A stretch of DNA of 55,774 nucleotides. Origin: Macrostomum lignano. Taxonomy: Eukaryota. Numbering within the stretch: the stretch's first letter is position 1; each line of letters begins with the position of its first letter. The notes beneath the pieces were generated by a model. That model was given only the letters and a program-made list of their open reading frames with translations. It ran no database searches and had not been told where the DNA came from. Position numbers and translations under genes: made by a program. Below, in pieces: positions 281-54,149 of the stretch. The stretch lies in assembly GCA_002269645.1 (NCBI GenBank), contig NIVC01002243.1, positions 1-55,774 of the forward strand, written 5' to 3'.

Positions 281-296
281 CTCAGTTCATATATTG

Positions 297-21400: not shown

Positions 21401-24400
21401 TTTTGCTTGAATGAGCATGGTGTGAGTTGAGGTTATAGGCTTTGGACATCCTGTTTTGCTTGAATGAGCATGGTGTGAGTTGAGGTTATAGGCTTTGGAC
21501 ATCCTGTTTTGTATGAATGAGCATGGTCTGAGTTGAGGTTATAGGCTTTGGACATCCTGTTTTGCATGAATGAGCATGGTGTGAGTTGAGGTTATTGGCT
21601 TTGGACATCCTGTTTTGTATGAATGAGCATGGTGTGAGTTGAGGTTATAGGCTTTGGACATCCTGTTTTGCATGAATGAGCATGGTGTGAGTTGAGGTTA
21701 TAGACTTTGGACATCCTGTTTTGCATGAATGAGCATGGTCTGAGTTGAGGTTATAGGCTTTGGACATCCTGTTTTGTATGAATGAGCATGGTCTGAGTTG
21801 AGGTTATAGACTTTGGACATCCTGTTTTGCATGAATGAGCATGGTTTGAGTTGAGGTTATAGGCTTTGAACATCCTGCCTTGCTTGAATGAGCATGGTGT
21901 GAGTTGAGGTTATAGGCTTTGGACATCCTATTTTGCTTGAATAAGCATGGTCTGAGTTGAGGTTCTAGGCTTTGAACATCCTGCCTTGCTTGAATGAGCA
22001 TGGTCTGAGTTGAGGTTATAGACTTTGGACATCCTGTTTTGCATGAATGAGCATGGTGTGAGTTGAGGTTATAGACTTTGGACATCCTGCCTTGCTTGAA
22101 TGAGCATGGTCTGAGTTGAGGTTATAGGCTTTGAACATCCTGCTTTGCTTGAATGAGCATGGTCTGAGTTCAGGCAGCTCAGAAGAGATCAGAGAGGCGA
22201 TGGATCAGCAGTGTAAACATAATATGTATTATTAATATGATTCGATACTTACCGCAACGAAGCTTCTTCGTGGTCGTTCTCTTCAGACATTGGCAGTCTT
22301 TTCTATACCACCACTGTCTGTAGTGCGTGACAATGCCGGTACGCTTGTTGCAGTGCTTCCACTTCTTAACAGTTTTGCTGCAGCGAACAGGCACTCTGCG
22401 ATCGTGCACCTTAGAGATGCATTTGTTGCAACCTTGCAGACGCCAGATTATGTGTCGAGTGACTTTTTCACGGCGAACTTTGTCGCAAAAGCGAATTATT
22501 TTCTTCGATCGGCAGTGCGTTCTACAGACTCGTTTGGTAATTCTCACCCGGCACTTGCACTTCGAGACGTACCAGCTGTAAGTAGCCAGATAGTAGTAAC
22601 CCTTCTTCGGATGGGGAATCCTTTTGGTCTCCGGCTTTCGATTGCAGTGCACCCGCTTACTGCTTGTTTTGTATACTTTACGGCATCTGTACGCTTTCAG
22701 TTGATAATAGCTAATTTGCCGCATCTGATACTGATTCTTCCTGCACCAATTTTTCACGCGCCGGTTGGGCCGGCAGCAGCATCGGAAGTGAAGCCTCTTA
22801 AAGATATGCTCACGGCAACGCTTTCCAAAAGCTTTGTAGAAATAGAAAAGCTTGGAGAACGTGCACTGGCGACCGCAGTTCTTCGTAGTGCAACCCTTAG
22901 GACACTTTGTTACCCTGGTGTGTTTGCCGCCGCGGCAGCCGCACATTTCGCGAGCGACGCGTTTTGCCGGGACGCAGGAGCAGCTGCCTGAGCGTCGCTT
23001 GTAATACCGGAACTCAACCCGCCGGTAGCGAACGTTGCCCGACAGCAGGCGACATGGACCCGCTAGTCGTTTCACATCGCGTCTGCACTCTGAAAATGGA
23101 ATTAAATCGGTTTTATAAGCGACATGGATCGGCACCATCAATAAAGCTTCAATTGCTAATCGACAGTCATTCTGTCTCCACTTACTGACAGTAACCTTCT
23201 TCGTCAACGTTCTCTTAATGCAGTTGTTTCCTTTTTTCTCATACCAAAACTTCGTGAAGATGCGCTGACCTTTTCGTCCGTCGCAACTAACAATTACACC
23301 ACCTTTCGGGCATTTGATTCGGATTTTGCGAATAATAATCTTTTTTATACAGCGATATTTTATCAGTGTATAAGTCACAGTAATGATCTTCTTCCAGTAT
23401 TGATTAATGCGAGCAACAACTCTGGAGGTACGCGGACAGCCTGAAATTCAGTAATAAACTTGTCTATTAATTTCAAAAGTAGAAACTATTTTGACGAGTT
23501 GAAATACAAAAACTCGTACAAAAATACCTACAGCATTTTCCGATGTGCTTTACTTTGGAGTACTTCCGGCACTTGCAGTTGCGCACGTGAAAATAGCTGA
23601 TATGCCTAAAAGCCTTGCAAGAGCGTCGATGACAGCGCACAAAATTTTGTTGGTTACGATCGCAGCGGATTTTCCGTGTCCTTTTTGTTTGATGAGGCAC
23701 GCAGCGGCCGTTCTTCAGCTTCCAGTGGGTCGTCACGATCAGATAGTAGCTGCCTTTGCAGACAGAGACAGACTTTGGCTTGCTGCAGCGGCACATAATT
23801 TTCTTCCGGCTCACTTTGCGAGACCGGCAGCGACATTTGTGAGCATAGCGCTTATAGGTGATTCGAAAGTAGTATTTGCGGCCTGGAGTGCACTTTCCAG
23901 TGTGGAAGAAGCCTGTACAGTCTGAAATTTTTGTTGTTAGAGTAAAGTTTCGATGCAAACGCGAGTTCAGTGGAGAAGCGCTTAAGATGCTCGCTAGCTA
24001 ACTTACTGATTTTCCTCACAACTTTTGTGCTCGTTTTTCTCTCGCATCGAGAACAACGTCTTGTAGGCTTATACGTTTTGGTGATTCGCACTGTGACAAC
24101 ATTATTCCTGCACTCGGTATAGCTGATGCTCTTCTTCTTGCCAATGGGCGGACAAGGGCACTTGCGCTTAATAAGAAGTAGAACTCTTACACACCTCTTC
24201 TTTCCGTGCTTCTCTCGGTACTGCAGAAGTCGCTTGCCAATCTGCACACCTTTGCAATAGTTGCAGTTGTACCAACGGACTTTGCTTATGTACGGGCAAG
24301 CTGCAATCGAGAAAGCAGTGAAACATTAGCTCATAATATGTGTAGAAATACTATTGGCTCCAGACAGAAAATACGCTTCCAGCTTACCTCCGCAAGGATG

Positions 24401-26992
24401 GTAGCGTATCAGTACGCTCTTTCTGCACCGGCCTCTGGAGTCTGGAAACCAGCGAAGCGTGGTAACAGCCTTGTTCTTGTATTTGTCCGAGCACTTTGAC
24501 ACTATGCGTCGCTTAGCTGAGCAACCTGGAATAGAAAGTTTTGCAGACTCAATTTAAGCACGTGTTCGCCATTTAAATACACGAGCGTAGCAACGAGTTG
24601 GGTGACGACGAACTTACAGCATTTATTCGGTTGGCAGGTGGCCTGGCACATGACGCGATAAAACTGTTTGCTACATTTGCCCTTCTTCTTTATCTGTTCG
24701 CAAAGGAGCGTGCTTATCTGGTTGCGACAATGAGGCGTGCACATGCCGCAGGTGAGCCGGCAGAACCTGCCCATCACTTCTGGGTATCTACGACATCTGC
24801 CTTGGGCCTTCCAGTGGCGGCACTTGTGGTGCGACACTCGGTCGATGCACAGCTTGGCCAGACACTCGCAGTGTTTTGGCTTCACGCACTTGGTGCCATC
24901 CAATACGTAGCCTTTGTTGCAGCGACATCCCTCCGCTTTCGGAAGCTTGTAACAACGCCTCGGGGTGCCGAAGAAATGGTTGTCGCAAGTCTTCGGGCAG
25001 GGGTTCGCTTTGCGGCTAAAGTGTTGGTGCCGACCGCAACTCAGGACTGAAAATCAAAATCGCCAGATTGTTAACGAGATTTCTCTATTTCAGCTCGCTT
25101 ATAGTCTCGTATGCCTAAAAAGATTCCCATCTCACCGCAGCCGCTCTTGTGTCTCCAGGCGATTGGACGGTGATTACGGGCGCATCGTCTCGAGTGCAGG
25201 TAGAAATTGGCGCACAGAACTTTCCTCTGCAGGTCTGGGCGATACCTGGTGCTGCAGTAATCGATCACGCATGGCCTCAGGACCTCCGTGTTTGAACAGC
25301 CATGGCGTCCAATTACTTTTCTGCAAGCTCTCTCAGCCTCTCGACTCTCTTTTTTAGTATGGCACCCGCACTTCTTTGGCCGACCTTTGCAGTTCTTCAC
25401 CCAGCCTTTGCTCTTCCACAGCTTGTAGGCGTGGCTCAGATTGCCGAAGTTGTCGTTGGCCTTGTTGCCATCGCAGTTGCCAGCAAGGCCGGACACTCGG
25501 CCTCTGTATAACTTGGAGCTCAGGCGGAACGTGGCCGTAAACTCGCCGTCAAAGGTCACCCAGAATCCGCACTTGTTGCTCACCAGTACGAGATCCTCGC
25601 CAGAGTAGAAAGCTCGAATTTTGTGCTCGCTGTACGGCACATTCACGGACTTTCCGTTCACCTGACCGAAATATAATTCAGGGTACCCGTAGTTATTAGA
25701 GGTATTTTTCAAAACTCTACCATTCCTAAAGACTAAGTTTTTTTTGCGAGTTTAAACCACTCACCAGCAAGCGTCGTCCTCTCAGCAGCTTGAATTCTTT
25801 GCCATCAAGCTTGACTATCAGCGCTTTCAATCGTGACAGTCCGTGACGATGCTTTTTATGGTGCTTGTGCTTGGACTTTGAGCAGCCAAAGCTGGCGTAC
25901 AGCTCCAGATGGCAGAGCTTGAGATGCGAACGGGCCAGCAAAAACTGGCAGCCTCGAGAGAAAGTCGTCACGTGACCGCCATCAAACTGATAGATATGGC
26001 CGTTGGCCCCTCCGACGCTTCCGTAGCATTGTTCAACTGTTAATTGGAAGTAACAGAGCAATTCATCAGGGTCGTGTGCCAGCCATGGGATTGGGTCAGG
26101 GTCGTGTGCCAGCCATGGGATTGGGTCAGGGTCGTGTGCCAGCCATGGGATTGGGTCAGGGTCGTGTGCCAGCCATGGGATTGGGTCAGGGTCGTGTGCC
26201 AGCCATGGGATTGGGTCAGGGTCGTGTGCCAGCCATGGGATTGGGTCAGGGTCGTGTGCCAGCCATGGGATTGGGTCAGGGTCGTGTGCCAGCCATGGGA
26301 TTGGGTCAGGGTCGTGTGCCAGCCATGGGATTGGGTCAGGGTCGTGTGCCAGCCATCATGGTGCCAGCCATTGGGTCAGGGTCGTGTGCCAGCCATGGGA
26401 TTGGGTCAGGGTCGTGTGCCAGCCATGGGATTGGGTCAGGGTCGTGTGCCAGCCATGGGATTGGGTCAGGGTCGTGTGCCAGCCATGGGATTGGGTCAGG
26501 GTCGTGTGCCAGCCATGGGATTGGGTCAGGGTCGTGTGCCAGCCATGGGATTGGGTCAGGGTCGTGTGCCAGCCATGGGATTGGGTCAGGGTCGTGTGCC
26601 AGCCATGGGATTGGGTCAGGGTCGTGTGCCAGCCATGGGATTGGGTCAGGGTCGTGTGCCAGCCATGGGATTGGGTCAGGGTCGTGTGCCAGTCATGGGA
26701 TTGGGTCAGGGTCGTGTGCCAGTCATGAGATTGGGTCAGGGTCGTGTGCCAGTCATGGGATTGGGTCAGGGTCGTGTGCCAGTCATGGGATTTAACCTGC
26801 TCCGCCATCGGCGCTAATAACATTTGTCCCACGAGTTCAAAGAATCTTTAAAAACCTGTGATTTAACTGCATGCAGAAGTGTAGATCTTAGAAAAGTGTT
26901 TTCAACTCACCATGTCTCGCATTCACGCTTTGCGACTGTGTGGCCAGGAAGGCCAGCAGGAGGACAATTGTCAGGCTCGGAGACCACCCCAT
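6419..26992 (-). CDS. Giant secreted Cys/Lys/Arg-rich multidomain protein, about 5,309 aa, 30 exons (signal peptide, vWD-C8-TIL, 2 ShKT, Cys-repeat array, vWA, Cys repeats, ShKT, PAN, 2 ShKT)
   Basis: Hand-built GT-AG exons, 5'->3': 26992-26911 (MGWSPSLTIVLLLAFLATQSQSVNARH), 26036-25765, 25661-25136, 25046-24618, 24525-24388, 24300-24007, 23921-23532, 23440-23186, 23089-22253, 20973-20704, 20623-20204, 20019-19888, 19808-19262, 19192-18957, 18869-17965, 17881-17597, 17511-17375, 17288-16113, 16031-15177, 15082-14568, 14464-14168, 14059-12677, 12584-11793, 11691-11425, 11336-11208, 11117-9596, 9495-8783, 8702-7779, 7703-6615, 6525-6419 (ends ..CARTCGYCK*). Phases are consistent once six missing bases are restored; no premature stops. 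Confidence 0.85.
6422..7905 (-). other. C-terminal ShKT, PAN/apple, ShKT, Cys repeats, ShKT region
   Basis: ShKT CRDLLPTGICRKW..LCDKYPYFAKRLCARTCHRC; PAN SFDVCMSSCQKNSKCRAFDYDHSTRKCLLL; ShKT CEDRREFCKKSKCSRHLVRHLCNYTCGVC; terminal ShKT CKDKIRPVDCLFVKKSNMCRSMRSLCARTCGYC. Confidence 0.8.
9600..10075 (-). other. Degenerate vWA domain of the giant protein
   Basis: VDLFLVVDL...IVSFLK...VHITMVSY...TRTDLCGAL...RPGVEKIVVIITCG...LADKIKRKASVFVVG follows the vWA strand/helix pattern. Confidence 0.8.
20961..22169. repeat. 53-bp minisatellite (about 23 copies) in intron 9 of the giant gene; the unit contains the exon-10 splice acceptor
   Basis: Unit ggctttggacatcctgttttgtatgaatgagcatggtgtgagttgaggttata, period 53 (20961, 21014, ...). 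Confidence 0.95.
24618..25046 (-). other. TIL domain followed by two ShKT domains (exon 4)
   Basis: TIL: CGRHQHFSRKANPCPKTCDN..RRCYKLPKAEGCRCNKGYVLDGTKCVKPKHC. ShKT: CIDRVSHHKCRHWKAQGRCRRYPEVMGRFCRLTCGMC and CRNQISTLLCEQIKKKGKCSKQFYRVMCQATCQPNKC. Confidence 0.85.
25136..26036 (-). other. vWF type D domain plus C8 domain of the giant protein (exons 2-3)
   Basis: C..VGGANGHIYQFDG...CQFLLA...VNGK.V.VP...CGFWVTFDG...YRGRVSGLAGNCDGNKAND, followed by the C8-like ..ACRKVI...PCVIDYC...VLCANFY...RCA...IAWRHKSGC. Confidence 0.85.
26067..26790. repeat. 30-bp minisatellite (about 24 copies) in intron 1 of the giant gene
   Basis: Unit gggattgggtcagggtcgtgtgccagccat, with one irregular unit near 26358-26372. 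Confidence 0.97.
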
Positions 26993-28513: not shown

Positions 28514-29675
28514 AAATCCCAGCTAGCCAGACTTCACCTACTGTTACAAAATGTTATTAGGTAGTTTTTACACGAGCTCATTATTTTTACTACGTCATTT
28601 TATGACTGGCCGCTTCCGGTGCCTAAAATGAGCCATGGATTTTTGAGTAAGTCGAGTAGGTCTGCTCATGTTGCTCTGGTGTCATAAAAAATTAAATATA
28701 CACTTTTTGTTGCTTACTGCTGCTAAATGATTTGCCCGTGTAAATGAGTATTTGAAAACCTGAGTAAATTGCAATTAAACCCTTGAATGTATTAATCAAT
28801 GTGCGGGTCTGCAGACTAAATGCTAATCAATTAAATAATGTTGAACACGAAACGCCAAACAGATTATAAGTACTCGTATTTGCCCGAACTAATTAAATCC
28901 AGTACAAAATTAATCTCAGTGTAGGGAATACTTTATTAAATTATATTTCAGTCAACAATACAGTTACAGTACATGGTTAGCAACTAGAAATAATCTGATT
29001 GAGTCCCACAGTTCAAAGGCCAGCGATCATGGGCGGTGTCCGGTCCGTGTCCGAGGTCAGTGGGTGCAGCGGAGCACCTGCCTACAGTCTACCTACTTGC
29101 CTAGCGGCAGGTGGCGGTAGATCCTGTAGGCCCTGCTGGCAACGCGGAGCACCCTCCTCCACCTGATGCGGATGCGGCGAAGGAGCCACTTCTTCTGCAG
29201 CTCGGCGGCCCTCTCGTCCGTCATCTCCGGCTCGTCCATGTCGGCCAGAGCCTCCAGCGCCGCCATCGCCTCCGCGTCCTCTTGGCTGTTCTCCTGGCTG
29301 TTGGGTCTGGCGGCGGCCAGGGCTGCGCACAGCAGGAGTCCGAGAACAAACTGCCACCTCATGATGAAGAAGTTAAGAGCTGTAGCCTGATGAAGCTGAG
29401 AAGCTGGTAGAGTTATCTAGCCTTGGCTGCTTGGTTGTCCGCTAAGCATCCAAGGGCCCTGTATTTATAGTGTAGAAATCAGCACGTTTTTCCGGTCGTT
29501 GGAATGCCAAGGGCTCCGCTGTGTCCCCTTCACGTGCTGCCGTCTTTTCTTGGATGGTTAGACCCTTACAGTATGTCTTAGCCATCTTTTAGCTTTATTG
29601 TCCATTTGTCCACTCATTGCCAAGGCTCTGAGGGCATTGAACTTGAATACTACTGCATTTGAATTGAATTTGTTG
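28514..29675. repeat. Inverted segmental duplication, about 1.16 kb (partner 33634-34794), containing the peptide gene
   Basis: Reverse complement matches from caacaaattcaattc through the promoter, CDS and 3' flank to gctagctgggattt, with only a few differences seen. Confidence 0.92.
29093..29362 (-). CDS. Prepro cationic peptide, copy 1 (putative antimicrobial peptide precursor, 89 aa)
   Basis: Signal peptide MRWQFVLGLLLCAALAAA, acidic pro-piece, KK, WLLRRIRIRWRRVLRVASRAYRIYRHLPL, GK*. TATAAATA at 29469-29462 and AATAAA at 28937-28932. Confidence 0.85.
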   Translation of the reverse strand: MRWQFVLGLLLCAALAAARPNSQENSQEDAEAMAALEALADMDEPEMTDERAAELQKKWLLRRIRIRWRRVLRVASRAYRIYRHLPLGK

Positions 29676-30261
29676 GCCTGCCCGCCTGCATGCAATGTGT
29701 TATAGAAAGCACACTGAGCTTCTCAAGTAGTTTGAGAACAATAGCTAAAGGTTTGAGTCGCTAAAATTGTGTATTCCATTTTATAGAAGCCTAAAAGTTG
29801 AGTTTGAGATTGGAGAGGGCTGTCTGGACACCTCAGGTCGAGTTCAAGTTCGCTGCTTTGAGATAACGATTTGGCTGAACAAGCATGTTGTGCATCACTG
29901 CTGACAAGATGTTTGATTGTGATCGGCAGCTGATTCACTTCACCAATGAAGTTTTTTTCTTTGAACATCTAAAACGCATTTGTCTTTTCATTTGAAGTTT
30001 CTGCTGTTCGTAGTACACACTGCAGAAATAAGTACAATAGTTCATGTTACGAGCAACTTATCCTTATCAATTTTTTAAATGATATGATGCTTTCTAGGTC
30101 CTACATTTAATTAACTTCTACGTGTAATTTTGAGTTCTGCATGCAATAATTTTTTAAGAATCTGGAAAATAACGTTTCTGTCAATAATTTTAACTTGTCC
30201 TATACTCAACAACTATTAAAGACTCACGAAGCTTGCTTGGCTCTAGTGTTTTCTCGGGTAT

Positions 30262-31529
30262 CATGCTGAGATGCCTTATGCTCAGATGCCATATGCTCAG
30301 ATGCCATATGCTCAGATGCCATATGCTCAGATCCCATATGCTCAGATGCCATATGCTCAGATCCTATTTGCTCAGATGCCATATGCTCAGATCCTATTTG
30401 CTCAGATGCCATATGCTCAGATGCCATATGCTCAGATGCCATATGCTCAGATCCTATTTGCTCAGATGCCATATGCTCAGATCCTATTTGCTCAGATGCC
30501 ATATGCTCAGATCCTATTTGCTCAGATGCCATATGCTCAGATGCCATATGCTCAGATCCTATTTGCTCAGATGCCATATGCTCAGATCCTATTTGCTCAG
30601 ATGCCATATGCTCAGATCCTATTTGCTCAGATGCCATATGCTCAGATGCCATATGCTCAGATGCCATATGCTCAGATCCTATTTGCTCAGATGCCATATG
30701 CTCAGATCCTATTTGCTCAGATGCCATATGCTCAGATGCCATATGCTCAGATGCCATTTGCTCAGATCCTATTTGCTCAGATGCCATATGCTCAGATCCT
30801 ATTTGCTCAGATGCCATATGCTCAGATCCTATTTGCTCAGATGCCATATGCTCAGATCCTATTTGCTCAGATGCCATATGCTCAGATGCCATATGCTCAG
30901 ATGCCATATGCTCAGATGCCATATGCTCAGATCCTATTTGCTCAGATGCCATATGCTCAGATGCCATATGCTCAGATCCATATGCTCAGATGCCATATGC
31001 TCAGATGCCATATGCTCAGATGCCATATGCTCAGATCCTATTTGCTCAGATGCCATATGCTCAGATGCCATATGCTCAGATCCTATTTGCTCAGATGCCA
31101 TATGCTCAGATGCCATATGCTCAGATGCCATATGCTCAGGTATACCATATGCTCAGATACCATATACTCTGATGCCATATGCTCAGATCCTATTTGCTCA
31201 GATGCCATATGCTCAGATGCCATATGCTCAGATGCCATATGCTCAGATGCCATATGCTCGATGCCATATGCTTAGATGCCATATGCTCAGATCCTATTTG
31301 CTCAGATGCCATATACTCAGATGCCATATGCTCAGATGCCATATGCTCAGATGCCATATGCTCAGATGCCATATGCTCAGATGCCATATGCTCAGATGCC
31401 ATATGCTCAGATGCCATATGCTCAGATGCCATATGCTCAGATGCCATATGCTCAGATGCCATATGCTCAGATGCCATATGCTCAGATGCCATATGCTCAG
31501 ATGCCATATGCTCAGATGCCATATGCTCA
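30262..31529. repeat. 15-bp minisatellite with two variants (inverted partner at 42171-43319)
   Basis: Units ATGCCATATGCTCAG and ATCCTATTTGCTCAG interspersed. Confidence 0.97.
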
Positions 31530-31989
31530 TGTAGATTTGTTCAGATGTCTCAATTATACCAGAGCAGCTGCTTTCTGCAACCAAAACGATGTGCCGTGTT
31601 ATGAAGGCTGCTGTGCTAACATATCCTCTGAGGTGCTTCAGGAATTTGTTAGGCGCCGTTCCGGTTCGTTCTGGTGCTTCACTGTACGCTGCGAACTGCT
31701 CTTCCTTCGACGAGAACTTCTGTTGCGGTGACGCGTGGGTCGACGCGAACCGTCAAGGCGGCTCGGCATGCTTGGTGGCCAACACGCTGAAAACCGTAGT
31801 CTTATGCACCGCGCCGACCTGTTCCGATGCTGGCGACTCCTGCTGGCAGGCCGCAAGATCCCCGGAGCCCCAGATTCGGTCAGCGCGAGGCCTACGTTCG
31901 CGTCCAAGCCCAGACAGATGCGCCCTGACGCTGATTCTGCAAGACCCCGATATCATAATTTTTTCTGTTGTTCAGAAAGATTTTCCCAG

Positions 31990-32361
31990 ATGCAATGTGC
32001 TCAGGTAAATTAGCTTAGATATGCAATGTGCTCAGGTAAATTAGCTTAGATATGCAATGTGCTCAGGTAAATTAGCTTAGATATGCAATGTGCTCAGGTA
32101 AATTAGCTTAGATATGCAATGTGCTCAGGTAAATTAGCTTAGATATGCAATGTGCTCAGGTAAATTAGCTTAGATATGCAATGTGCTCAGGTAAATTAGC
32201 TTAGATATGCAATGTGCTCAGGTAAATTAGCTTAGATATGCAATGTGCTCAGGTAAATTAGCTTAGATATGCAATGTGCTCAGGTAAATTAGCTTAGATA
32301 TGCAATGTGCTCAGGTAAATTAGCTTAGATACAATGTGCTCAGGTAAATTAGCTTAGATAC
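31990..32361. repeat. 31-bp minisatellite, about 12 copies (inverted partner at 41370-41710, about 11 copies)
   Basis: Unit atgcaatgtgctcaggtaaattagcttagat, period 31. Confidence 0.96.
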
Positions 32362-32384
32362 GAGCGTATGTAATGTGCGCGTGG

Positions 32385-33250
32385 CGATTCGTCATATTCT
32401 CGGGGAGATTCGCCATATTCTTCGGGAGATTCGCCATAGTCTTCGGGAGATTCGCCATATTCTTGTGGAGATTCGCCATATTCTCTGGGAGATTCACCAT
32501 ATTCTTTTGGAGATTCGCCATATTCTTGGGGAGATTCGCCATATTCTCTGGGAGATTCACCATATTCTTTTGGAGATTCGCCATATTCTTGGGGAGATTT
32601 GCCATATTCTTGGAGAGATTTGCCATATTCTTTTGGAGATTCGCCATATTCTTGGGGAGATTTGTCATATTCTTGGGGAGATTCGCCATATTCTTGTGGA
32701 GATTCGCCATATTCTTTTGGAGATTCGCCATATTCTTTTGGAGATTCGCCATATTCTTGGGGAGATTCGCCATATTCTTGAGGAGATTTGCCATATTCTT
32801 GGGGAGATTTGCCATATTCTTTTGGAGATTCGCCATATTCTTTTGGAGATTCGCCATATTCTTGAGGAGATTTGTCATATTCTTGGGGAGATTCGCCATA
32901 TTCTTGTGGAGATTCGCCATATTCTTTTGGAGATTCGCCATATTCTTTTGGAGATTCGCCATATTCTTGGGGAGATTCGCCATATTCTCTGGGAGATTCA
33001 CCATATTCTTTTGGAGATTCGCCATATTATTGGGGAGATTTGCCATATTCTTGTGGAGATTCGCCCTATAAAATTTTGTAGATTCGCCATATTCTTTTGG
33101 AGATTCGCCATATTCTTGGGGAGATTTGCCATATTCTTCGGGAGATTGGCTATATTCTTGGGGAGATTCACCATATTCTTGGGGAGATTCGCCATATTCT
33201 TGAGGAGATTTGCCATATTCTTGGGGAGATTTGCCATATTCTTGGGGAGG
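32385..33250. repeat. 21-bp minisatellite (short inverted partner at 41265-41347)
   Basis: Unit gagattcgccatattcttNNN with variable last bases. Confidence 0.96.
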
Positions 33251-33374
33251 TCAACACAGAGGTCAACATTAGGCTTCAGAAACATTTTTAAATTCTTAGG
33301 AAGCATGTTCTTCAATTTTTAAACTTTGGTTTGAAACTTAATCAGCTCTAGTAGAGTCGCTTCTTTGCTAACAT

Positions 33375-33486
33375 CTCTCTGGAATCTGTGACCTCTCCCC
33401 GCACCCTGCCCAGTGGCGCTAGCTAGAGTGCTCTCTGGAAGCTGTGACCTCTCCCCGCACCCTGCCCAGTGGCGCTAGCTAGAGTG
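33375..33486. repeat. 56-bp tandem duplication
   Basis: ctctctggaa..gtgacctctccccgcaccctgcccagtggcgctagctagagtg at 33375 and 33431. Confidence 0.9.
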
Positions 33487-33946
33487 TCTTTGGCTAGGTG
33501 GCTGGGGGGGGGGAGTTATGAGAACAGCAAGCTCTATTGTTCTCAATAGAAGCTACTATACTCGTAAGAGCTTGGGCAGCGCTGTAGAGTTCAATGCCGC
33601 GCTTGTGCACAAATTCAATTCGACAAATTTGTACAACAAATTCAATTCAAATGCAGTAGTATTCAAGTTCAATGCCCTCAGAGCCTTGGCAATGAGTGGA
33701 CAAATGGACAATAAAGCTAAAAGATGGCTAAGACATACTGTAAGGGTCTAACCATCCAAGAAAAGACGGCAGCACGTGAAGGGGACACAGCGGAGCCCTT
33801 GGCATTCCAACGACCGGAAAAACGTGCTGATTTCTACACTATAAATACAGGGCCCTTGGATGCTTAGCGGACAACCAAGCAGCCAAGGCTAGATAACTCT
33901 ACCAGCTTCTCAGCTTCATCAGGCTACAGCTCTTAACTTCTTCATC

Positions 33947-34216
33947 ATGAGGTGGCAGTTTGTTCTCGGACTCCTGCTGTGCGCAGCCCTGGCCGCCGCC
34001 AGACCCAACAGCCAGGAGAACAGCCAAGAGGACGCGGAGGCGATGGCGGCGCTGGAGGCTCTGGCCGACATGGACGAGCCGGAGATGACGGACGAGAGGG
34101 CCGCCGAGCTGCAGAAGAAGTGGCTCCTTCGCCGCATCCGCATCAGGTGGAGGAGGGTGCTCCGCGTTGCCAGCAGGGCCTACAGGATCTACCGCCACCT
34201 GCCGCTAGGCAAGTAG
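33947..34216 (+). CDS. Prepro cationic peptide, copy 2 (protein identical to copy 1)
   Basis: Same ORF as copy 1 on the opposite strand. TATAAATA at 33840-33847 and AATAAA at 34372-34377. Confidence 0.85.
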   Translation: MRWQFVLGLLLCAALAAARPNSQENSQEDAEAMAALEALADMDEPEMTDERAAELQKKWLLRRIRIRWRRVLRVASRAYRIYRHLPLGK

Positions 34217-44666: not shown

Positions 44667-47600
44667 ACTACTAAGCAACGGCAGATGGCTTGATTTTGGA
44701 GGTGAGGTGGGTGTCAACCCTCCTCGCCTCTCATTGGCTGGCGCCCCGATCACTAGGTGATCGATACCCGTATCGATATCGGCGACTCGAACCCGCGACC
44801 CTCCCCAGCCGCAGGCGCACCTACCGATATTAGATCCCAATAAATCAATCAGATCCCAAATCAATCAGATCCCAAATCAATCAGATCCCAAGCGCACCCT
44901 CCCGAGCCGCAGGCGCCCATGCAGCAGGCGCCCATGCCGCAGGCACCCCGAGTGTACACTCTCCCGATATGTGTGTACACCGATATGTAGTCATCGATAC
45001 GGGCCTCTTCCCCTCTCTCACCTACATCTCAACTAGCGAAATCGAACCCAGGTCGCGCCCATACTAGGACACTACACGGTTGTGGGGTATAGGGAGCGAG
45101 AAGTTTCAACCCTAACGCTGACGCAGCCCTGTACAGTGAGAGTGTACGGGCAGAGAGGGGTGGGGCGGACAGAGAACCAGCCACTAGGTTGTTATACTGT
45201 TGAAGCATAGGGAGCGAGAAGTTTTAACCCCGATGCTGACGCAGCCCTGTACACTGAGCGTGTACGGGCAGAGGGTGGGTGGAAAGAGATGTGAATAACA
45301 CAGCCTGCTGCAGGAGCCGGATAGAGAGGCGCATGCTAGGACAGAGAGGTAGTGTGAGTCACACACACCCCACAGAGAAAGCCATACAGAGGATAGAGAG
45401 CTCCCTCCCCAGTTGCAGGGGACAGAGGGGCAGGCAGGGTATGCAGGGGCATGCGAACCGTCAAGGGGCCACGCGAGGATAGAGTGGAGGAGCAGAGATG
45501 TGTTTGGACAGAGAGCCAGCCACGTGTGCGTAGTGTGAGGGAACAGAAACATATGGAGCAGGAGGGAGATAGGAAGCAAACGCGCAGGGTAAGGGAGCCA
45601 TGCAGCAGGGAGCAGTGTACAGTGAGACACGGGCAGGGGTGGAGCCGTGCGTGGACAGAGCTGAACGGCACGGTCAGCTGCAGGAATAGGATGATAGAGA
45701 GGCGCGGAGGGGGACAGAGAGCAGTGTGCAGGGTAGGCAGCCACGCAGGCTGGGGAACAGAGAGGCGCGTGTCAGCCAGTTACAGCCCGGGACAGAGAAG
45801 TATGAAGGGGGGCCTGGGACAGAGAAGTATGAAGGGGGGCCTGGGACAGAGTTGCGAGCAAGGCACAGAGAGAGGTAGGGTCCGGTAGCTATGTATAGGC
45901 AGGGACCCACGCGAGGGCAGGACAGGGCATGCAAGGCATGCAAATTACATACAAGGGCAGTGAGGTGTGCGCGGAGGGAGACAGAGAGCAGTGTGTAGGG
46001 GTAGGTAACAGCAAACTTTAGTAGAGGCGCGTGCGGGGACGGAGAAACCAGTCTGAGCGTACAGAGACGTTACAGAGAGGTACACAAACAGAGACCAAAG
46101 CGGGCAGAGCACGTGTAGGGACAGAGACGTGAGGGAGAATAGACCAAAACACGCTATGTATTTTCAAAAGTTGGTTTTAGTGCAGCATATTTAATAGCGG
46201 GTAGTATAATAGTATGTACATAGTAGGTATAATGGTAGTAATAATAGTAAGTATATTAGCCCAAAAGGTAGGCTAAAACAGGCTAAACTGTGTGTACGCA
46301 TCCTCATCACCCCACAAGCCCCCTCTCCCGCCAGACTCACTCTTCCATACCCTCCTGTATTGCTGTATGAAGGAAAATATAGTGTAAAAATACAGATCTT
46401 AACCGTCAGACCGCTGAAATCAGGGCACACTAGAGGGGTTTCGGGGTCTGCATGCTCTATGTAAGCTGTTTCAATTATGTTTTGAAAAAACTAGGGGCTT
46501 AAATACAACGTTTTATTCAAAAAGTAGGTTATTTTAATGAAATAGCTGACACAATCATTGTCGAGAGTAGAAATTTTTATAAGAAACCAGGCATTTTAGC
46601 AAAAATAAACCTTCAAACCACATAAAATTGAATAAAAAGCAGACATTTTCAATTATAAACCGCAAGTATTTTAATAGAAAAGTAAGCAAACAAGGCACAA
46701 AACCAGCAAATTTTACCTTTTTATTTTAATGTTACTGATAAGGTAGAGAGTAGAAACTTGTGAGCTGTACGGAGTTAGAAAGTATTAACCATTATGTATC
46801 GTATGAATTATTAGTTCAGTACCAGCCATTGGTCAAGCGAGCATTTATGAAGTTATTACGAGTGATGAAGGGATAGAGAGCTATATACAGGAAGACAGTA
46901 TCCTTCTAAACCACCACGAACAGATTGCTAATAGAGATAAGCTTTGTCTGTGTGCAGTATGAGTAAGCGAAGGCGGGGCAAATACTTTTCCACATGCCGG
47001 ACAGAACAGTATTGTGCTAGGATTTCTCTCGAAATCACGGTACGTTACTAGTTTTTATCACACCATCCAGATGCGTCAACTAGTCAGCAGTAGTCATTTA
47101 TATGTTATTAGAACTTACAAACCCAGGTCAAGTAAATATTACAAAGAGTATATTACGTACACACGCCAACTCCGAATACCAAGCCATACTAGTCTACTTG
47201 CAGTGCTCCTGGAGGGAAGGGACGGCGGGGTGTACATCCGGCAGGGTGGGCGTCCAGCGAGTGTACATCTGACAGGATGGGTGTTCAGCAAGTGTACATC
47301 TGACAGGGTGGGCGTTCAGCAAGTGTACCTTCAGCGTCGAGTAGGTGTACACCCGTCAGTGGGGAACTCCACCCCTCCCACCAATGTCGTGTGCATGCGG
47401 TTAGTCAGTATAGTGGTGGGGTAGACGGTGCAGGAAGGAAACCCAGATGCTGACGCTGCCCTGTACAGCGAGCAACCAGCCCCCTGTAGCAGGAGGGGGA
47501 CAGAGAGTGCGTGGAGGCAGTAGGAGATAGAGGACGCTACCCGGCATGTCGCAGCACGCGGCGCGGGACAGAGGCAGTGTGTAAGTCACCCCGCGGAGAG

Positions 47601-50600
47601 AGCTCCCCTGGCAGGAGGCGCGGGACAGAGAGGCGGTGAATCACACCCCACGGAGAGAGCCGTACAACGAGCTTCCCCACCCGAGTCCGGTAAATATTAC
47701 AGAGTATTACGTGCACACGCCAGCCCTGAATACCAAGCCATACTAGTCTACCTGCAGTGCTCCCAGAGGGAAGGGATGGTCAGGAGTTACACACCAAGAA
47801 TGCATTCATACAAAGAGTACACAACTCGAGCCCAGACACCAAGTCACAGTCTACTTACAGTAGAGATGGTAGATTAATAGCAAGATTATATTACAATTAG
47901 ACCTCCCTAGCACATGAGGAGTGAAATTCAATAATAATTGAATTCAATAATAATACAACATTTAGACGTAGTAATTTAATTACAAAATACCACTAACACT
48001 GAGCCAACGAATTGTAGGTTACAAAGGAGTTGCCACTCATATGGAAAGCCAGTATAATGCAGGTGTGTATTATTAAAACATAGACAAAAACGATGCAGAC
48101 GTATATACACACTATTGATTTTGTACATGTACATTTCGGCATATTACCACACATCGCGGGCACATATTATATATCGGGGGATAGGTTAAAATACACACAT
48201 CGTAGATGTAGAAGCAGACACAATGCAGAAAAATTATGATACGAGTGTACATATTAGTGCGTAAAAGTATCATATTATGACACCCTGTAGCACATATTGA
48301 CATAATGCAGGGGAAAATATTGACAGAAATAGTACACAATTGTAGAGGTAACAACCAGCCAACTAGTAAGGGCATCCAGCACTTGTTCAGGTTTTTTTTT
48401 TATTTCGAGACGAGTGTCATGCCCCCGCAAGAGATCTTATCAGAAATTTGTTGAACTCCACTGCAACTCTCCCCAGAACCTCCAAATGGGAGTTTTAACA
48501 CTTGAGGGGATCCCGCTCAATGTACAGTGCGGACGGAGAGGGGTAACAGAAAGCGCTGCATCAGACCGCGGAGCTGCATTCCTCCCCGAGGTAGGCGCGT
48601 CAGCTCCCACTCCTCATTTAACCATCAAGTAAACTAAAGAAGTCAAGCAGAAAGCCTTACAATCACCCGCAACCAGCACAAGTAAGAGTACTTTCCACTA
48701 GAGAGCCATAGTGCAAGATTCGCGAGCCAAGTTGAAGAAGCACACCAAATTACACTAAAGACATATGTATTAAAAAGCATACCGGCACCTCTACAAAAAC
48801 ACAGTATGTACCGATTAAAGTTGCTTTTGGTGCAGTGTATTTAATAAAAAGCAGGTACCTAACACAAAAGTAGGCATCAATGCAGTGCACGGGCTAAACT
48901 GTATTTACAAACGCAGGGCAACGAACTACACACAATGTAGCGCATAGACATAATTGTACACATAAATGTACGCAATTTCCGGTATATAGGACCAAATGTA
49001 CGCAAATGTACACAATGTACACAAACACACACACACTCAGGCGTATTCACAGCAAGAGCTTCCTGCCGATGGCGCCATCGCCTGCGGCGATCGGTGCTGC
49101 AGGATGCGCTGCAGGATGCGCCTGAGTGTGTGTGTGTTTGTGTGCATTGTGTACATTTGCGTACATTTGGTCCTATATACCGGAGATTGCGTACATTTAT
49201 GTGTACAATTATGTCTATGCGCTACATTGTGTGTAGTTCGTTGCCCTGCGTTTGTAAATACAGTTTAGCCCGTGCACTGCATTGATGCCTACTTTTGTGT
49301 TAGGTACCTGCTTTTTATTAAATACACTGCACCAAAAGCAACTTTAATCGGTACATACTGTGTTTTTGTAGAGGTGCCGGTATGCTTTTTAATACATATG
49401 TCTTTAGTGTAATTTGGTGTGCTTCTTCAACTTGGCTCGCGAATCTTGCACTATGGCTCTCTAGTGGAAAGTACTCTTACTTGTGCTGGTTGCGGGTGAT
49501 TGTAAGGCTTTCTGCTTGACTTCTTTAGTTTACTTGATGGTTAAATGAGGAGTGGGAGCTGACGCGCCTACCTCGGGGGAGGAATGCAGCTCCGCGGTCT
49601 GATGCAGCGCTTTCTGTTACCCCTCTCCGTCCGCACTGTACATTGAGCGGGATCCCCTCAAGTGTTAAAACTCCCATTTGGAGGTTCTGGGAGAGTTGCA
49701 GTGGAGTTCAACAAATTTCTGATAAGATCTCTTGCGGGGGCATGACACTCGTCTCGAAATAAAAAAAAAACCTGAACAAGTGCTGGATGCCCTTACTAGT
49801 TGGCTGGTTGTTACCTCTACAATTGTGTACTATTTCTGTCAATATTTTCCCCTGCATTATGTCAATATGTGCTACAGGGTGTCATAATATGATACTTTTA
49901 CGCACTAATATGTACACTCGTATCATAATTTTTCTGCATTGTGTCTGCTTCTACATCTACGATGTGTGTATTTTAACCTATCCCCCGATATATAATATGT
50001 GCCCGCGATGTGTGGTAATATGCCGAAATGTACATGTACAAAATCAATAGTGTGTATATACGTCTGCATCGTTTTTGTCTATGTTTTAATAATACACACC
50101 TGCATTATACTGGCTTTCCATATGAGTGGCAACTCCTTTGTAACCTACAATTCGTTGGCTCAGTGTTAGTGGTATTTTGTAATTAAATTACTACGTCTAA
50201 ATGTTGTATTATTATTGAATTCAATTATTATTGAATTTCACTCCTCATGTGCTAGGGAGGTCTAATTGTAATATAATCTTGCTATTAATCTACCATCTCT
50301 ACTGTAAGTAGACTGTGACTTGGTGTCTGGGCTCGAGTTGTGTACTCTTTGTATGAATGCATTCTTGGTGTGTAACTCCTGACCATCCCTTCCCTCTGGG
50401 AGCACTGCAGGTAGACTAGTATGGCTTGGTATTCAGGGCTGGCGTGTGCACGTAATACTCTGTAATATTTACCGGACTCGGGTGGGGAAGCTCGTTGTAC
50501 GGCTCTCTCCGTGGGGTGTGATTCACCGCCTCTCTGTCCCGCGCCTCCTGCCAGGGGAGCTCTCTCCGCGGGGGTGACTTACACACTGCCTCTGTCCCGC

Positions 50601-53495
50601 GCCGCGTGCTGCGACATGCCGGGTAGCGTCCTCTATCTCCTACTGCCTCCACGCACTCTCTGTCCCCCTCCTGCTACAGGGGGGCTGGTTGCTCGCTGTA
50701 CAGGGCAGCGTCAGCATCTGGGTTTCCTTCCTGCACCGTCTACCCCACCACTATACTGACTAACCGCATGCACACGACATTGGTGGGAGGGGTGGAGTTC
50801 CCCACTGACGGGTGTACACCTACTCGACGCTGAAGGTACACTTGCTGAACGCCCACCCTGTCAGATGTACACTTGCTGAACACCCATCCTGTCAGATGTA
50901 CACTCGCTGGACGCCCACCCTGCCGGATGTACACCCCGCCGTCCCTTCCCTCCAGGAGCACTGCAAGTAGACTAGTATGGCTTGGTATTCGGAGTTGGCG
51001 TGTGTACGTAATATACTCTTTGTAATATTTACTTGACCTGGGTTTGTAAGTTCTAATAACATATAAATGACTACTGCTGACTAGTTGACGCATCTGGATG
51101 GTGTGATAAAAACTAGTAACGTACCGTGATTTCGAGAGAAATCCTAGCACAATACTGTTCTGTCCGGCATGTGGAAAAGTATTTGCCCCGCCTTCGCTTA
51201 CTCATACTGCACACAGACAAAGCTTATCTCTATTAGCAATCTGTTCGTGGTGGTTTAGAAGGATACTGTCTTCCTGTATATAGCTCTCTATCCCTTCATC
51301 ACTCGTAATAACTTCATAAATGCTCGCTTGACCAATGGCTGGTACTGAACTAATAATTCATACGATACATAATGGTTAATACTTTCTAACTCCGTACAGC
51401 TCACAAGTTTCTACTCTCTACCTTATCAGTAACATTAAAATAAAAAGGTAAAATTTGCTGGTTTTGTGCCTTGTTTGCTTACTTTTCTATTAAAATACTT
51501 GCGGTTTATAATTGAAAATGTCTGCTTTTTATTCAATTTTATGTGGTTTGAAGGTTTATTTTTGCTAAAATGCCTGGTTTCTTATAAAAATTTCTACTCT
51601 CGACAATGATTGTGTCAGCTATTTCATTAAAATAACCTACTTTTTGAATAAAACGTTGTATTTAAGCCCCTAGTTTTTTCAAAACATAATTGAAACAGCT
51701 TACATAGAGCATGCAGACCCCGAAACCCCTCTAGTGTGCCCTGATTTCAGCGGTCTGACGGTTAAGATCTGTATTTTTACACTATATTTTCCTTCATACA
51801 GCAATACAGGAGGGTATGGAAGAGTGAGTCTGGCGGGAGAGGGGGCTTGTGGGGTGATGAGGATGCGTACACACAGTTTAGCCTGTTTTAGCCTACCTTT
51901 TGGGCTAATATACTTACTATTATTACTACCATTATACCTACTATGTACATACTATTATACTACCCGCTATTAAATATGCTGCACTAAAACCAACTTTTGA
52001 AAATACATAGCGTGTTTTGGTCTATTCTCCCTCACGTCTCTGTCCCTACACGTGCTCTGCCCGCTTTGGTCTCTGTTTGTGTACCTCTCTGTAACGTCTC
52101 TGTACGCTCAGACTGGTTTCTCCGTCCCCGCACGCGCCTCTACTAAAGTTTGCTGTTACCTACCCCTACACACTGCTCTCTGTCTCCCTCCGCGCACACC
52201 TCACTGCCCTTGTATGTAATTTGCATGCCTTGCATGCCCTGTCCTGCCCTCGCGTGGGTCCCTGCCTATACATAGCTACCGGACCCTACCTCTCTCTGTG
52301 CCTTGCTCGCAACTCTGTCCCAGGCCCCCTTCATACTTCTCTGTCCCAGGCCCCCCTTCATACTTCTCTGTCCCGGGCTGTAACTGGCTGACACGCGCCT
52401 CTCTGTTCCCCAGCCTGCGTGGCTGCCTACCCTGCACACTGCTCTCTGTCCCCCTCCGCGCCTCTCTATCATCCTATTCCTGCAGCTGACCGTGCCGTTC
52501 AGCTCTGTCCACGCACGGCTCCACCCCTGCCCGTGTCTCACTGTACACTGCTCCCTGCTGCATGGCTCCCTTACCCTGCGCGTTTGCTTCCTATCTCCCT
52601 CCTGCTCCATATGTTTCTGTTCCCTCACACTACGCACACGTGGCTGGCTCTCTGTCCAAACACATCTCTGCTCCTCCACTCTATCCTCGCGTGGCCCCTT
52701 GACGGTTCGCATGCCCCTGCATACCCTGCCTGCCCCTCTGTCCCCTGCAACTGGGGAGGGAGCTCTCTATCCTCTGTATGGCTTTCTCTGTGGGGTGTGT
52801 GTGACTCACACTACCTCTCTGTCCTAGCATGCGCCTCTCTATCCGGCTCCTGCAGCAGGCTGTGTTATTCACATCTCTTTCCACCCACCCTCTGCCCGTA
52901 CACGCTCAGTGTACAGGGCTGCGTCAGCATCGGGGTTAAAACTTCTCGCTCCCTATGCTTCAACAGTATAACAACCTAGTGGCTGGTTCTCTGTCCGCCC
53001 CACCCCTCTCTGCCCGTACACTCTCACTGTACAGGGCTGCGTCAGCGTTAGGGTTGAAACTTCTCGCTCCCTATACCCCACAACCGTGTAGTGTCCTAGT
53101 ATGGGCGCGACCTGGGTTCGATTTCGCTAGTTGAGATGTAGGTGAGAGAGGGGAAGAGGCCCGTATCGATGACTACATATCGGTGTACACACATATCGGG
53201 AGAGTGTACACTCGGGGTGCCTGCGGCATGGGCGCCTGCTGCATGGGCGCCTGCGGCTCGGGAGGGTGCGCTTGGGATCTGATTGATTTGGGATCTGATT
53301 GATTTGGGATCTGATTGATTTATTGGGATCTAATATCGGTAGGTGCGCCTGCGGCTGGGGAGGGTCGCGGTTCGAGTCGCCGATATCGATACGGGTATCG
53401 ATCACCTAGTGATCGGGGCGCCAGCCAATGAGAGGCGAGGAGGGTTGACACCCACCTCACCTCCAAAATCAAGCCATCTGCCGTTGCTTAGTAGT
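44667..53495. mobile_element. 8,829-bp foldback element: inverted arms of about 4.38 kb (44667-49043 and 49119-53495), 75-bp spacer, ACTACT/AGTAGT termini, 6-bp TSD; Polinton/Maverick-like ends, non-coding
   Basis: actgag|actactaagcaacggcagatgg ... ccatctgccgttgcttagtagt|actgag (TSD at 44661-44666 and 53496-53501). The paralogous flank of copy 2 shows the empty site ccctacactgagattaattttg. ORFs are mirrored between the two arms in the track. Confidence 0.88.
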
Positions 53496-54149
53496 ACTGA
53501 GATTAATTTTGTACTGGATTTAATTAGTTCGGGCAAAAACTTATAATCTGTTTGGAGTTTCGTGTTCAACATTATTTAATTGATTAGCATTTAGTCTGCA
53601 GACCCGCACATTGATTAATAAATTCAAGGGTTTAATTGCAATTTACTCAGGTTTTTAAATACTCATTTACACAGGCAAATCATTTAGCAGCAGTAAGCAA
53701 CAAAAAGTGTATATTTAATTTTTTATGACACCAGAGCAACATGAGCAGACCTACTCGACTTACTCAAAAATCCATGGCTCATTTTAGGCACTGGAAGCGG
53801 CCAGTCATAAAATGACGTAGTAAAAATAATGAGCTAATGTAAAAACTACCTAATAACAATTTGTAACAGTAGGTGAAGTCTGGCTAGCTGGGATTTATAA
53901 AACATGATCGAAAAATTCAAATTTACAATGCATTTGGATTAGATTAATATATGCCAATTGACTTAATTAGTAACTGGTAGATGAAAAATGACTAAGTGTC
54001 GGGTCATGATTAAAACTTATATTATACAAAACAGATGGAAATGCACATTGCATTGATACCGATTTCTTCCTAACACGGATTAATAACGTTCACCAGTTAG
54101 TTATTGGATTGGAAGTAATCCGACCGAAAATATTTGTCCTTTCAAAAAC

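What the first reader, a model, noticed from the sequence alone, without database searches (positions are those of the whole stretch)
44667..53495. 8.8-kb almost fully palindromic mobile element with Polinton-like ends
More than 99% of the element is two inverted arms. A 6-bp TSD and termini made of a short repeated motif are established features of Polinton/Maverick elements (integrase; protein-primed replication with slide-back). Here the ends are ACTACT rather than the usual AG-start, the arms are far longer than typical TIRs, and no pPolB, integrase, ATPase or capsid ORF is visible. One model is a snap-back, defective-interfering-like derivative: replication from one end folded back and made a molecule with two functional termini, which was then integrated in trans. 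The paralogous empty site shows the insertion postdates the peptide-gene duplication, and the near identity of the arms suggests it is young.
Basis: partly seen in the sequence, partly recalled or inferred. Interest (0 to 1): 0.86.

Follow-up and report, generated by a model that had tools for sequence, protein, structure and literature searches.

The report
Palindromic satellite of a split Polinton
This 8.8-kb mirror-image DNA belongs to a family of gene-less mobile elements found at many sites in the genome, and its ends match two half-sized virus-like elements there, one carrying only the DNA-copying enzyme and the other only the insertion and capsid genes, so it is likely a parasite of a virus-like transposon that has split in two, an arrangement we did not find described.

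Summary
Confirmed, and part of a larger system. The element (44667-53495; 6-bp target duplication, 4,377-bp arms, 75-bp core) belongs to a family seen at about 27 sites, nearly all with their own 6-bp duplication. The core is conserved in 21 of 23 copies. Variants are mostly shared by both arms of a copy (580 vs 61), so arm identity reflects arm-to-arm correction, not age.

Its ACTACT ends, down to a hypervariable 28-nt terminal haplotype, are shared with two ~10-kb elements: 'A' encodes only an intron-split protein-primed polymerase; 'B' encodes integrase, capsid proteins, protease and ATPase but no polymerase. A second A/B pair has ACTACG/ACTACA ends. Both halves show purifying selection, and no A polymerase lies within 40 kb of a B integrase. 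Complete Polintons in this genome have AGTAGT ends.

Best reading: a non-coding satellite of a bipartite Polinton, copied by A's polymerase through a snapped-back hairpin and integrated by B's integrase. Complementation, replication and packaging are inferred, not shown. Only ~20% of the arm matches the helpers, so it is not a simple fold-back of one helper end. Ten literature searches found no split Polinton; Repbase was not searchable.

The parts
44661..44666 (+). left copy of the 6-bp target-site duplication ACTGAG
   Evidence: single copy at the empty paralogous sites
44667..49043 (+). left arm, 4,377 bp, no recognisable gene
44667..44694 (+). terminal 28 nt: (ACT)2 trinucleotide end plus a hypervariable haplotype; identical to both ends of a polymerase-only element (G000:C307) and one end of an integrase/capsid element (G000:C150); inferred replication origin and integrase site
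44667..44999 (+). segment homologous to the terminal repeat of the polymerase-only helper A1 (99% over nt 1-123, 72-81% to nt 333)
47226..47639 (+). internal segment 71-73% like the terminal repeat of the integrase/capsid helper B2
48483..48529 (+). 47-bp piece 98% identical to sequence just downstream of the A1 polymerase gene
48977..49185 (+). imperfect hairpin tip; two arm-specific T/C differences (G.T pairs on the + strand) inherited by a young subfamily
49044..49118 (+). 75-bp asymmetric core, conserved in 21 of 23 copies compared; the + strand folds as a near-continuous hairpin
49119..53495 (-). right arm, inverted copy of the left arm
53496..53501 (+). right copy of the target-site duplication ACTGAG
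44219..44488 (+). host gene for an 89-aa protein that looks like a secreted precursor (hydrophobic N-terminus, acidic middle, dibasic site, cationic C-terminus; antimicrobial-peptide-like by inspection, no Pfam hit); the element inserted 17 nt after its AATAAA (44644-44649)
34389..34394 (+). empty target site in a paralogous peptide gene
28915..28920 (-). empty target site in a second paralogous peptide gene

Best explanation
The element is a member of a multi-copy, non-coding palindromic family that shares its ends with two complementary half-Polintons, and it is likely a satellite copied by the polymerase of one half and integrated by the integrase of the other. Shown: element A (9.4-9.7 kb, ~900-bp terminal repeats, 6-bp duplications) carries an intron-split protein-primed family-B polymerase and no integrase or capsid gene. 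Element B (10.2-10.9 kb) carries a retroviral-like integrase, a double-jelly-roll capsid protein, putative minor capsid, protease and ATPase genes, and no polymerase. Inferred cycle: (1) A's polymerase initiates at the (ACT)2 ends by protein priming and displaces a full-length strand. (2) The self-complementary strand snaps back into a ~4.4-kb hairpin whose open end is again an origin. (3) Copying around the tip restores the two-ended 8.8-kb duplex. (4) Correction within the folded strand (3'-end re-extension or mismatch repair) makes the arms alike but spares G.T pairs beside the tip. (5) B's integrase inserts the duplex with a 6-bp duplication. More speculatively, doubling brings a ~4.4-kb unit into the 9-10.5-kb size range of the helpers, which would suit packaging in B's capsid.
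For: Family: 26 of 28 end-paired copies have an exact 6-bp duplication, and the core is conserved in 21 of 23. Arms evolve together: over arm nt 700-4300 in 22 copies, minority states occur in both arms 580 times and in one arm 61 times, 31 of the latter in one recombinant copy. The two tip mismatches persist in 9 copies at 8 sites. The + strand tip folds better than the - strand (-148.6 vs -140.5 kcal/mol). Helpers: A1 has 12 of 12 exact duplications; the A1-type loci screened had polymerase exons and no integrase or capsid hit. B2 and B1 each have 5 of 6 exact duplications and none of the 12 has a polymerase hit. The B2 capsid model (pLDDT 80) matches PBCV-1, Sputnik and mavirus major capsid proteins at E~1e-16; the integrase passes the Pfam rve cut-off. 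Terminal haplotypes vary widely, yet 5 of 31 are shared across classes, and the window's own occurs in all three. A second pair, A2/B1, shares ACTACG/ACTACA ends. Selection: dN 0.07-0.42 against dS 1.7 or more between the pairs. No linkage: 100 A-type polymerase hits and 71 B-type integrase hits share three contigs, 44, 168 and 466 kb apart (compared by eye). The five complete Polintons with both ends resolved have AGTAGT ends; the one compared at DNA level (C114) shares nothing with the arm. Exchange among classes: an arm/A1 chimera and an A2 derivative with 2.3-kb copied-back arms.
Against: No free molecule, virion, spliced transcript or enzyme activity was observed; everything is read from integrated copies. 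About 80% of the arm has no match in the helpers, so its origin is unexplained and an unrecognised spliced gene or RNA is not excluded. One copy has 1.6 kb of one arm from another subfamily, so correction is not obligatory at every round. Shorter, centre-deleted and single-arm forms of 4.1-7.5 kb also have target duplications, which weakens the size-selection idea. The short-read contigs laid did not list a piece bridging arm-core-arm. The terminal-protein domain of A's polymerase was not identified. A full-length parent could be missing from the assembly.
Confidence: 0.72

Rival explanations
1. A, B and the palindrome are all defective passengers of an undivided ACTACT-ended Polinton or exogenous virus that is absent from this assembly.
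For: An undivided relative with an intronless A-like polymerase beside an rve integrase exists elsewhere (L192). The assembly has 5,269 contigs and searches score only the best candidates.
Against: Both halves kept their genes under purifying selection across near-saturated synonymous divergence, and the same split recurs in two end-matched pairs. No linked copy was found among 100 polymerase and 71 integrase hits.
Confidence: 0.12
2. The element is a Foldback-like long-repeat transposon moved by B's integrase alone (cut and paste), with arms kept alike by gene conversion in the chromosome and no polymerase-driven hairpin stage.
For: Only the ends are needed for integration. Centre deletions typical of chromosomal palindrome instability are seen. 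Arm-to-arm conversion in chromosomal palindromes is known (recalled).
Against: Copies only a few substitutions apart carry different terminal haplotypes matched at both ends, which points to correction at or near each mobilisation. The same end-matching is seen in A and B. The two tip mismatches pass unchanged to 8 sites. The arm carries pieces of both helpers.
Confidence: 0.1
3. The palindrome, A and B are mobilised in trans by the complete AGTAGT-ended Polintons of the same genome.
For: Several complete Polinton families with long open reading frames are present and also make 6-bp duplications.
Against: Their ends differ in sequence, the one compared shares no DNA with the arm or helpers, their polymerases are barely alignable to A's, and A and B conserve their own enzymes.
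Confidence: 0.04
4. The palindrome is an assembly artefact (fold-back reads or collapse of long repeats).
For: Homopolymer indels suggest noisy reads. No bridging short-read contig was listed.
Against: The two flanks are different and joined by an exact duplication, empty paralogous sites exist, the same core recurs in 21 of 23 copies, and a second contig holds the same insertion. Contigs from three studies cover all 30 bins of flank, arm and core.
Confidence: 0.02

Closest known systems
Polintons/Mavericks, the group with the divergent polymerase (pPolB2 / Beta type) (PMC8097293, PMC8502044, bioRxiv 10.1101/2023.08.22.554363; passages read)
   Same: 6-bp duplication, long terminal repeats, a twice-repeated terminal trinucleotide; A plus B together hold polymerase, integrase, major capsid and putative minor capsid, protease and ATPase genes in about 20 kb.
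   Different: The genes lie on two separately integrating elements; the ends are 5'-(ACT)2//(AGT)2-3' instead of 5'-(AGT)2//(ACT)2-3'; the polymerase has GT-AG introns, whereas intact vertebrate Mavericks are described as intronless; the window element has no genes and is 99% palindrome.
Bidnaviridae (bidensoviruses), as described in PMC8502044 and PMC11161782 (passages read)
   Same: A Polinton-derived protein-primed polymerase on one of two segments whose termini match.
   Different: Bidnaviruses are ssDNA viruses; an integrase, double-jelly-roll capsid and chromosomal integration are not part of their description in those passages. Here both halves are integrated dsDNA with target duplications.
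Hairpin/duplex deletion derivative of the kalilo linear plasmid (title seen in the reference list of PMC11161782; paper not read); yeast killer-plasmid hairpin derivatives (recalled)
   Same: A defective derivative of a protein-primed replicon that exists as a hairpin and as its duplex.
   Different: Those are extrachromosomal derivatives of the helper itself; this one integrates, is a long-lived family and is mostly unrelated to its helpers.
Snap-back defective genomes of adeno-associated virus (PMC8235507; search listing and start of abstract only)
   Same: Self-complementary, helper-dependent genomes.
   Different: Those are heterogeneous by-products of one virus; here the centre is fixed and inherited through the germ line.
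Foldback/Galileo-type and other palindromic non-autonomous DNA transposons (recalled, not tested)
   Same: Very long inverted arms and no coding capacity.
   Different: The ends and duplication length tie this family to Polinton-type helpers, not to a cut-and-paste transposase family.

Membership tests
Polinton/Maverick (autonomous) | 6-bp target-site duplication | tested here: met
   window copy; 26 of 28 end-paired family copies exact
Polinton/Maverick (autonomous) | terminal inverted repeats of about 100-1500 bp | tested here: not met
   arms are 4,377 bp; the helpers' ~570-930-bp repeats do meet it
Polinton/Maverick (autonomous) | end motif 5'-(AGT)2//(ACT)2-3' or (AG)3//(CT)3 | tested here: not met
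   ends are (ACT)2//(AGT)2; an AC-starting variant is reported for one fish (PMC8097293)
Polinton/Maverick (autonomous) | polymerase and integrase encoded on one element | tested here: not met
   none in the window element; on separate elements in the helpers
Polinton/Maverick (autonomous) | double-jelly-roll capsid, ATPase and protease genes | tested here: not met
   absent from the window element; present on helper B (capsid by fold; ATPase and protease only by weak Pfam hits and tblastn to canonical Polintons)
Non-autonomous Polinton-dependent element (satellite) | ends identical to those of elements that encode the enzymes | tested here: met
   first 123 nt 99% identical to A1; 28-nt terminal haplotype shared with A1 and B2
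Non-autonomous Polinton-dependent element (satellite) | mobilisation depends on the helpers | not testable with these tools
   inferred from shared ends, duplications and chimeras
Bipartite (segmented) virus-like element | complementary gene sets on separate molecules with matching termini | tested here: met
   two end-matched pairs
Bipartite (segmented) virus-like element | both segments maintained by selection | tested here: met
   dN far below dS for 8 of 8 ORFs compared; dS near saturation, so the ratios are approximate
Bipartite (segmented) virus-like element | segments replicate together and are packaged | not testable with these tools
   no virion or extrachromosomal data
Snap-back defective-interfering genome | arms derive from one end of the helper genome | tested here: not met
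   875 of 4,464 arm bases align to helpers, from two different helpers
pPolB2 with VSR-like nuclease insertion (helper A) | VSR fold inside the polymerase | tested here: inconclusive
   a conserved VDG..F.GC..H stretch aligns with relatives, but no Pfam or PDB hit and a pLDDT-33 model

The most novel reading that the evidence does not exclude
This animal carries the first segmented polintoviruses: two independent bipartite systems, each with a spliced polymerase segment and an integrase/capsid segment that integrate separately and exchange hypervariable termini, plus a heritable hairpin satellite that doubled itself into a palindrome of segment size. Such systems would be invisible to published Polinton screens that require polymerase and integrase to lie close together, and may be widespread.
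Probability: 0.5. Interest if true: 0.94.

Novelty: new variant of a known kind. Interest (0 to 1): 0.87.

Why it matters
Polintons are defined by carrying polymerase and integrase together, and the three surveys whose methods I read select on that co-location, so split systems would be missed. A segmented, integrating double-jelly-roll element would extend multipartite genome organisation to this virus lineage. Introns in the polymerase imply nuclear, host-spliced expression. How Polintons replicate has largely been inferred from sequence. Here a young, multi-copy, gene-less palindrome records the intermediate (arms corrected against each other, tip spared) and gives a simple target for detecting free hairpin forms. 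The protein labels point to a laboratory flatworm, so the tests are practical. Large germ-line palindromes at dozens of sites may also bear on host genome stability (inference).

Tried and rejected
Coding or structured-RNA role for the arm: 0 of 47 ORFs hit Pfam; Rfam gave only a sub-threshold hairpin match.

Canonical Polintons as helpers: AGTAGT ends; the one compared shares no DNA. The 40.6-kb ACTACT-ended element on C271 is an A element with a canonical Polinton nested inside it, not an autonomous parent.

Origin of the core from a truncated A1 terminal repeat: 3 of 60 shuffles scored as high, so inconclusive.

VSR domain in A's polymerase: no Pfam or PDB hit, unusable model.

Unknown helper ORFs: no usable Atlas hit for the two tried. 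One other B2 ORF is a Fic domain.

Relatives elsewhere: the B2 capsid search found three ~80% proteins without context; the metagenome scan gave one distant locus; two viral-contig scans were empty; the phage collection gave no match.

Expression: no holder on record as RNA was listed, and contigs cannot show level or strand, so nothing is concluded.

Earlier findings: three look-ups returned nothing.

Literature: ten searches listed no paper on a split Polinton, a palindromic Polinton satellite, or Polintons of this host; I judged most hits from titles and abstract starts. The 2006 founding paper was not held. Repbase, Dfam and paper supplements were not seen and may hold these families.
Full report
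OBSERVATION. The element at 44667-53495 (8,829 bp) is one inverted alignment at 99.5%. It is flanked by ACTGAG on both sides, begins ACTACT and ends AGTAGT. The arms are 4,377 bp and differ by two substitutions (48977/49185, 49018/49144) and six one-base homopolymer indels. The core 49044-49118 is asymmetric. It sits 17 nt after the AATAAA of an 89-codon gene that looks like a secreted cationic-peptide precursor; two paralogues in the window carry the empty site. No ORF scanned matches Pfam (0 of 47), and 17 Polinton marker ORFs do not match the window.

IT IS A FAMILY. The terminal 234 bp finds 40 scored matches of 279 candidates, mostly in inward-facing pairs 8-9 kb apart. A terminal pattern finds 159 ends against 3 for the reversed control. 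I examined 29 loci of the palindrome family, chosen; this is not a census. Of these, 28 gave an end pair, 26 of 28 have an exact 6-bp duplication, and two pairs are the same site on two contigs, leaving about 27 sites. The two exceptions are a copy with an extra terminal ACT (its duplication is exact once that is counted) and a one-base mismatch at a duplicated site. The core is conserved in 21 of 23 copies; the other two have deletions across the centre. Short-read contigs from four studies lie on the arm, three of them covering all 30 bins including the core, but no listed piece bridges arm-core-arm. An artefact is very unlikely, though not excluded by reads.

THE ARMS EVOLVE TOGETHER. Over arm nt 700-4300 in 22 copies, 197 columns vary. 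Minority states appear in both arms of a copy 580 times and in one arm 61 times, 31 of these in one copy whose outer 1.6 kb comes from another subfamily. Copies differ by up to 83 substitutions there, while 19 of 22 have 0-5 between their own arms. The first 28 nt are hypervariable between copies yet identical at both ends in 26 of 28. These ends are anchored to unique flanks, so polishing cannot explain the match. In contrast, two T/C differences 67 and 26 bp from the core are inherited by 9 copies at 8 sites. On the + strand they are G.T pairs, and that strand folds as a near-continuous hairpin (-148.6 vs -140.5 kcal/mol for the - strand). Arm identity therefore reflects correction, not age. 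Youth is shown by copies 0-2 substitutions apart over this interval at different sites.

WHO SHARES THE ENDS. A Pfam PF03175 search placed polymerase hits inside 9.4-9.7-kb elements with the same ends. These 'A1' elements have ~900-bp terminal repeats and exact duplications in 12 of 12. They show polymerase exons and no hit to integrase or capsid markers. The polymerase keeps exonuclease and polymerase motifs (read; motif names recalled) and is interrupted by GT-AG introns. Donor motifs for three introns and acceptor motifs for two were found in 10 of 10 copies, and the fourth intron's motifs in fewer. Its best database matches (97-100%) are labelled Macrostomum lignano; others are about 28%.

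A different ACTAC-ended element proved to carry an rve integrase, capsid-like, protease-like and ATPase-like ORFs and no polymerase. Its integrase finds 71 hits at 72% or more, in two families. 'B2' (five copies of 10.3-11.9 kb and one of 14.0 kb; 59 pattern matches genome-wide) has ACTACT ends; 'B1' (10.2-10.9 kb) has ACTACG/ACTACA ends. Each has exact duplications in 5 of 6, and none of the 12 has a polymerase hit. The B2 major capsid model (pLDDT 80, pTM 0.81) matches PBCV-1, Sputnik and mavirus capsid proteins. The ATPase, protease and minor-capsid calls rest on weak Pfam hits and tblastn to canonical Polintons. A second polymerase-only family, 'A2' (62% to A1), has the ACTACG ends of B1: 6 of 8 loci gave both ends, all 6 with exact duplications.

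Of 31 terminal haplotypes, five are shared across classes; the window's occurs in the palindrome, A1 and B2. Between the two pairs, dN is 0.07-0.13 for B genes and 0.23-0.42 for polymerase exons, against dS of 1.7 or more, near saturation. Both halves have thus been kept functional through a long separation, and the split probably predates it (inference). The 100 A-type polymerase hits (134 of 134 candidates scored) and 71 B-type integrase hits share three contigs, 44-466 kb apart (compared by eye). The five complete Polintons with both ends resolved begin AGTAGT, and their polymerases barely align with A's. An undivided relative with an intronless A-like polymerase beside an integrase occurs in a viral contig (L192).

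WHAT THE ARM IS MADE OF. Only 875 of 4,464 bases align to the helpers: A1's terminal repeat (nt 1-333), a 47-bp piece from behind A1's polymerase, and a 71-73% copy of B2's terminal repeat at nt 2560-2973. The rest has no identified source; a 901-bp probe returned 40 scored matches of 121 candidates, on contigs holding family members where checked. The family exchanges DNA with the helpers: one element joins arm nt 1-4215 to the 3' half of A1, and a B2-ended element carries arm sequence. A 5.96-kb A2 derivative with 2.3-kb arms and an exact duplication shows copy-back in a helper itself.

MECHANISM. Shown: shared ends, complementary gene sets, selection, concerted arms, spared tip. Inferred, by analogy with adenovirus panhandle replication and linear-plasmid hairpins (recalled; the kalilo case seen only as a reference title in PMC11161782): A's polymerase primes at the trinucleotide ends and displaces a strand; the strand snaps back into a hairpin with a fresh origin; copying round the tip restores the two-ended duplex; correction in the folded state equalises the arms; B's integrase inserts it. 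The recombinant copy argues that the whole 8.8-kb strand, not a half-length unit, is what is passed on. Packaging is speculative: full copies (8.1-9.4 kb) resemble the helpers in size, but shorter forms also carry duplications.

COMPARISON. It works like a Polinton satellite but is not an autonomous Polinton: no genes, reversed end motif, oversized repeats. Passages read: PMC8097293 gives the (AGT)2//(ACT)2 motif, intronless genes and a screen needing integrase and polymerase 4-40 kb apart. BioRxiv 2023.08.22.554363 requires five genes within 20 kb and describes VSR-bearing pPolB2. BioRxiv 2024.01.15.575659 uses the same co-location rule and notes polymerase-plus-repeat remnants without integrase at 10 loci, treated as remnants. 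PMC8502044 notes that the two bidnavirus segments share termini. PMC3014272 reports no non-autonomous Polintons in anole. PMC6431247 is a general review. Ten searches listed no split Polinton. Subscription journals, supplements and Repbase were not seen.

VERDICT. Real. A new variant of the Polinton kind: a palindromic non-coding family tied to what appears to be a bipartite Polinton. Confidence in the full reading 0.72; interest 0.87.

Noticed in passing
G000:C2301:56054-70947 and C3189:41270-55822 (L133-L138): One site on two contigs: a ~15-kb inverted dimer of the integrase-capsid-ATPase module of a canonical AGTAGT Polinton with a 2.1-kb spacer; both run into contig ends, so the second duplication is not visible.
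   Followed up: partly
G000:C3085:7233-13192 and C4430:35943-41903 (L154, L155): 5.96-kb derivative of polymerase element A2 with 2.3-kb arms copied from the polymerase 3' end and an exact duplication.
   Followed up: partly
L030 (C4851) and L031 (C428): 8.7-kb chimera of palindrome arm nt 1-4215 and the 3' half of A1; exact duplication in L031.
   Followed up: partly
L038, L039, L040, L047, L051: Small ACTACT-ended elements of 145 bp to 1.3 kb; the 145-bp one shares a 16-nt stretch with the palindrome core (1 of 60 shuffles as high).
   Followed up: partly
nt 8-28 of all A, B and palindrome ends: Modular hypervariability: short blocks reassort among otherwise near-identical copies and across classes; cause unknown.
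   Followed up: partly
P0042, P0069, P0070, P0074 (alignment A2): Distant (28%) polymerases from other sources lose alignment into a pyrimidine-rich read-through at the position of A's third intron, suggesting an unspliced intron at the same place and a wider spliced lineage.
   Followed up: no
P0045-P0047: Three capsid proteins ~80% identical to B2's on short contigs from other collections; hosts unknown.
   Followed up: partly
G000:C382:258000-278600; C261:122657-139759; C271:276939-317558: Family members cluster or nest: A2 end, half palindrome and B2 within 20 kb on C382; a tandem palindrome pair beside a B1-type end on C261; a canonical Polinton inside an A1 on C271.
   Followed up: no
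L106:1419-2225 (-): B2 carries a Fic-domain ORF (E 7e-14) as accessory gene.
   Followed up: no
window 28514-35016 and 41263-44666: Three copies of the peptide gene within inverted and direct segmental duplications rich in minisatellites; the gene region is very deep in two runs guessed to be RNA, whose contigs show the empty-site junction.
   Followed up: partly
window ~6500-26000 (-): A series of long cysteine- and lysine-rich open frames, probably exons of a large host gene.
   Followed up: no
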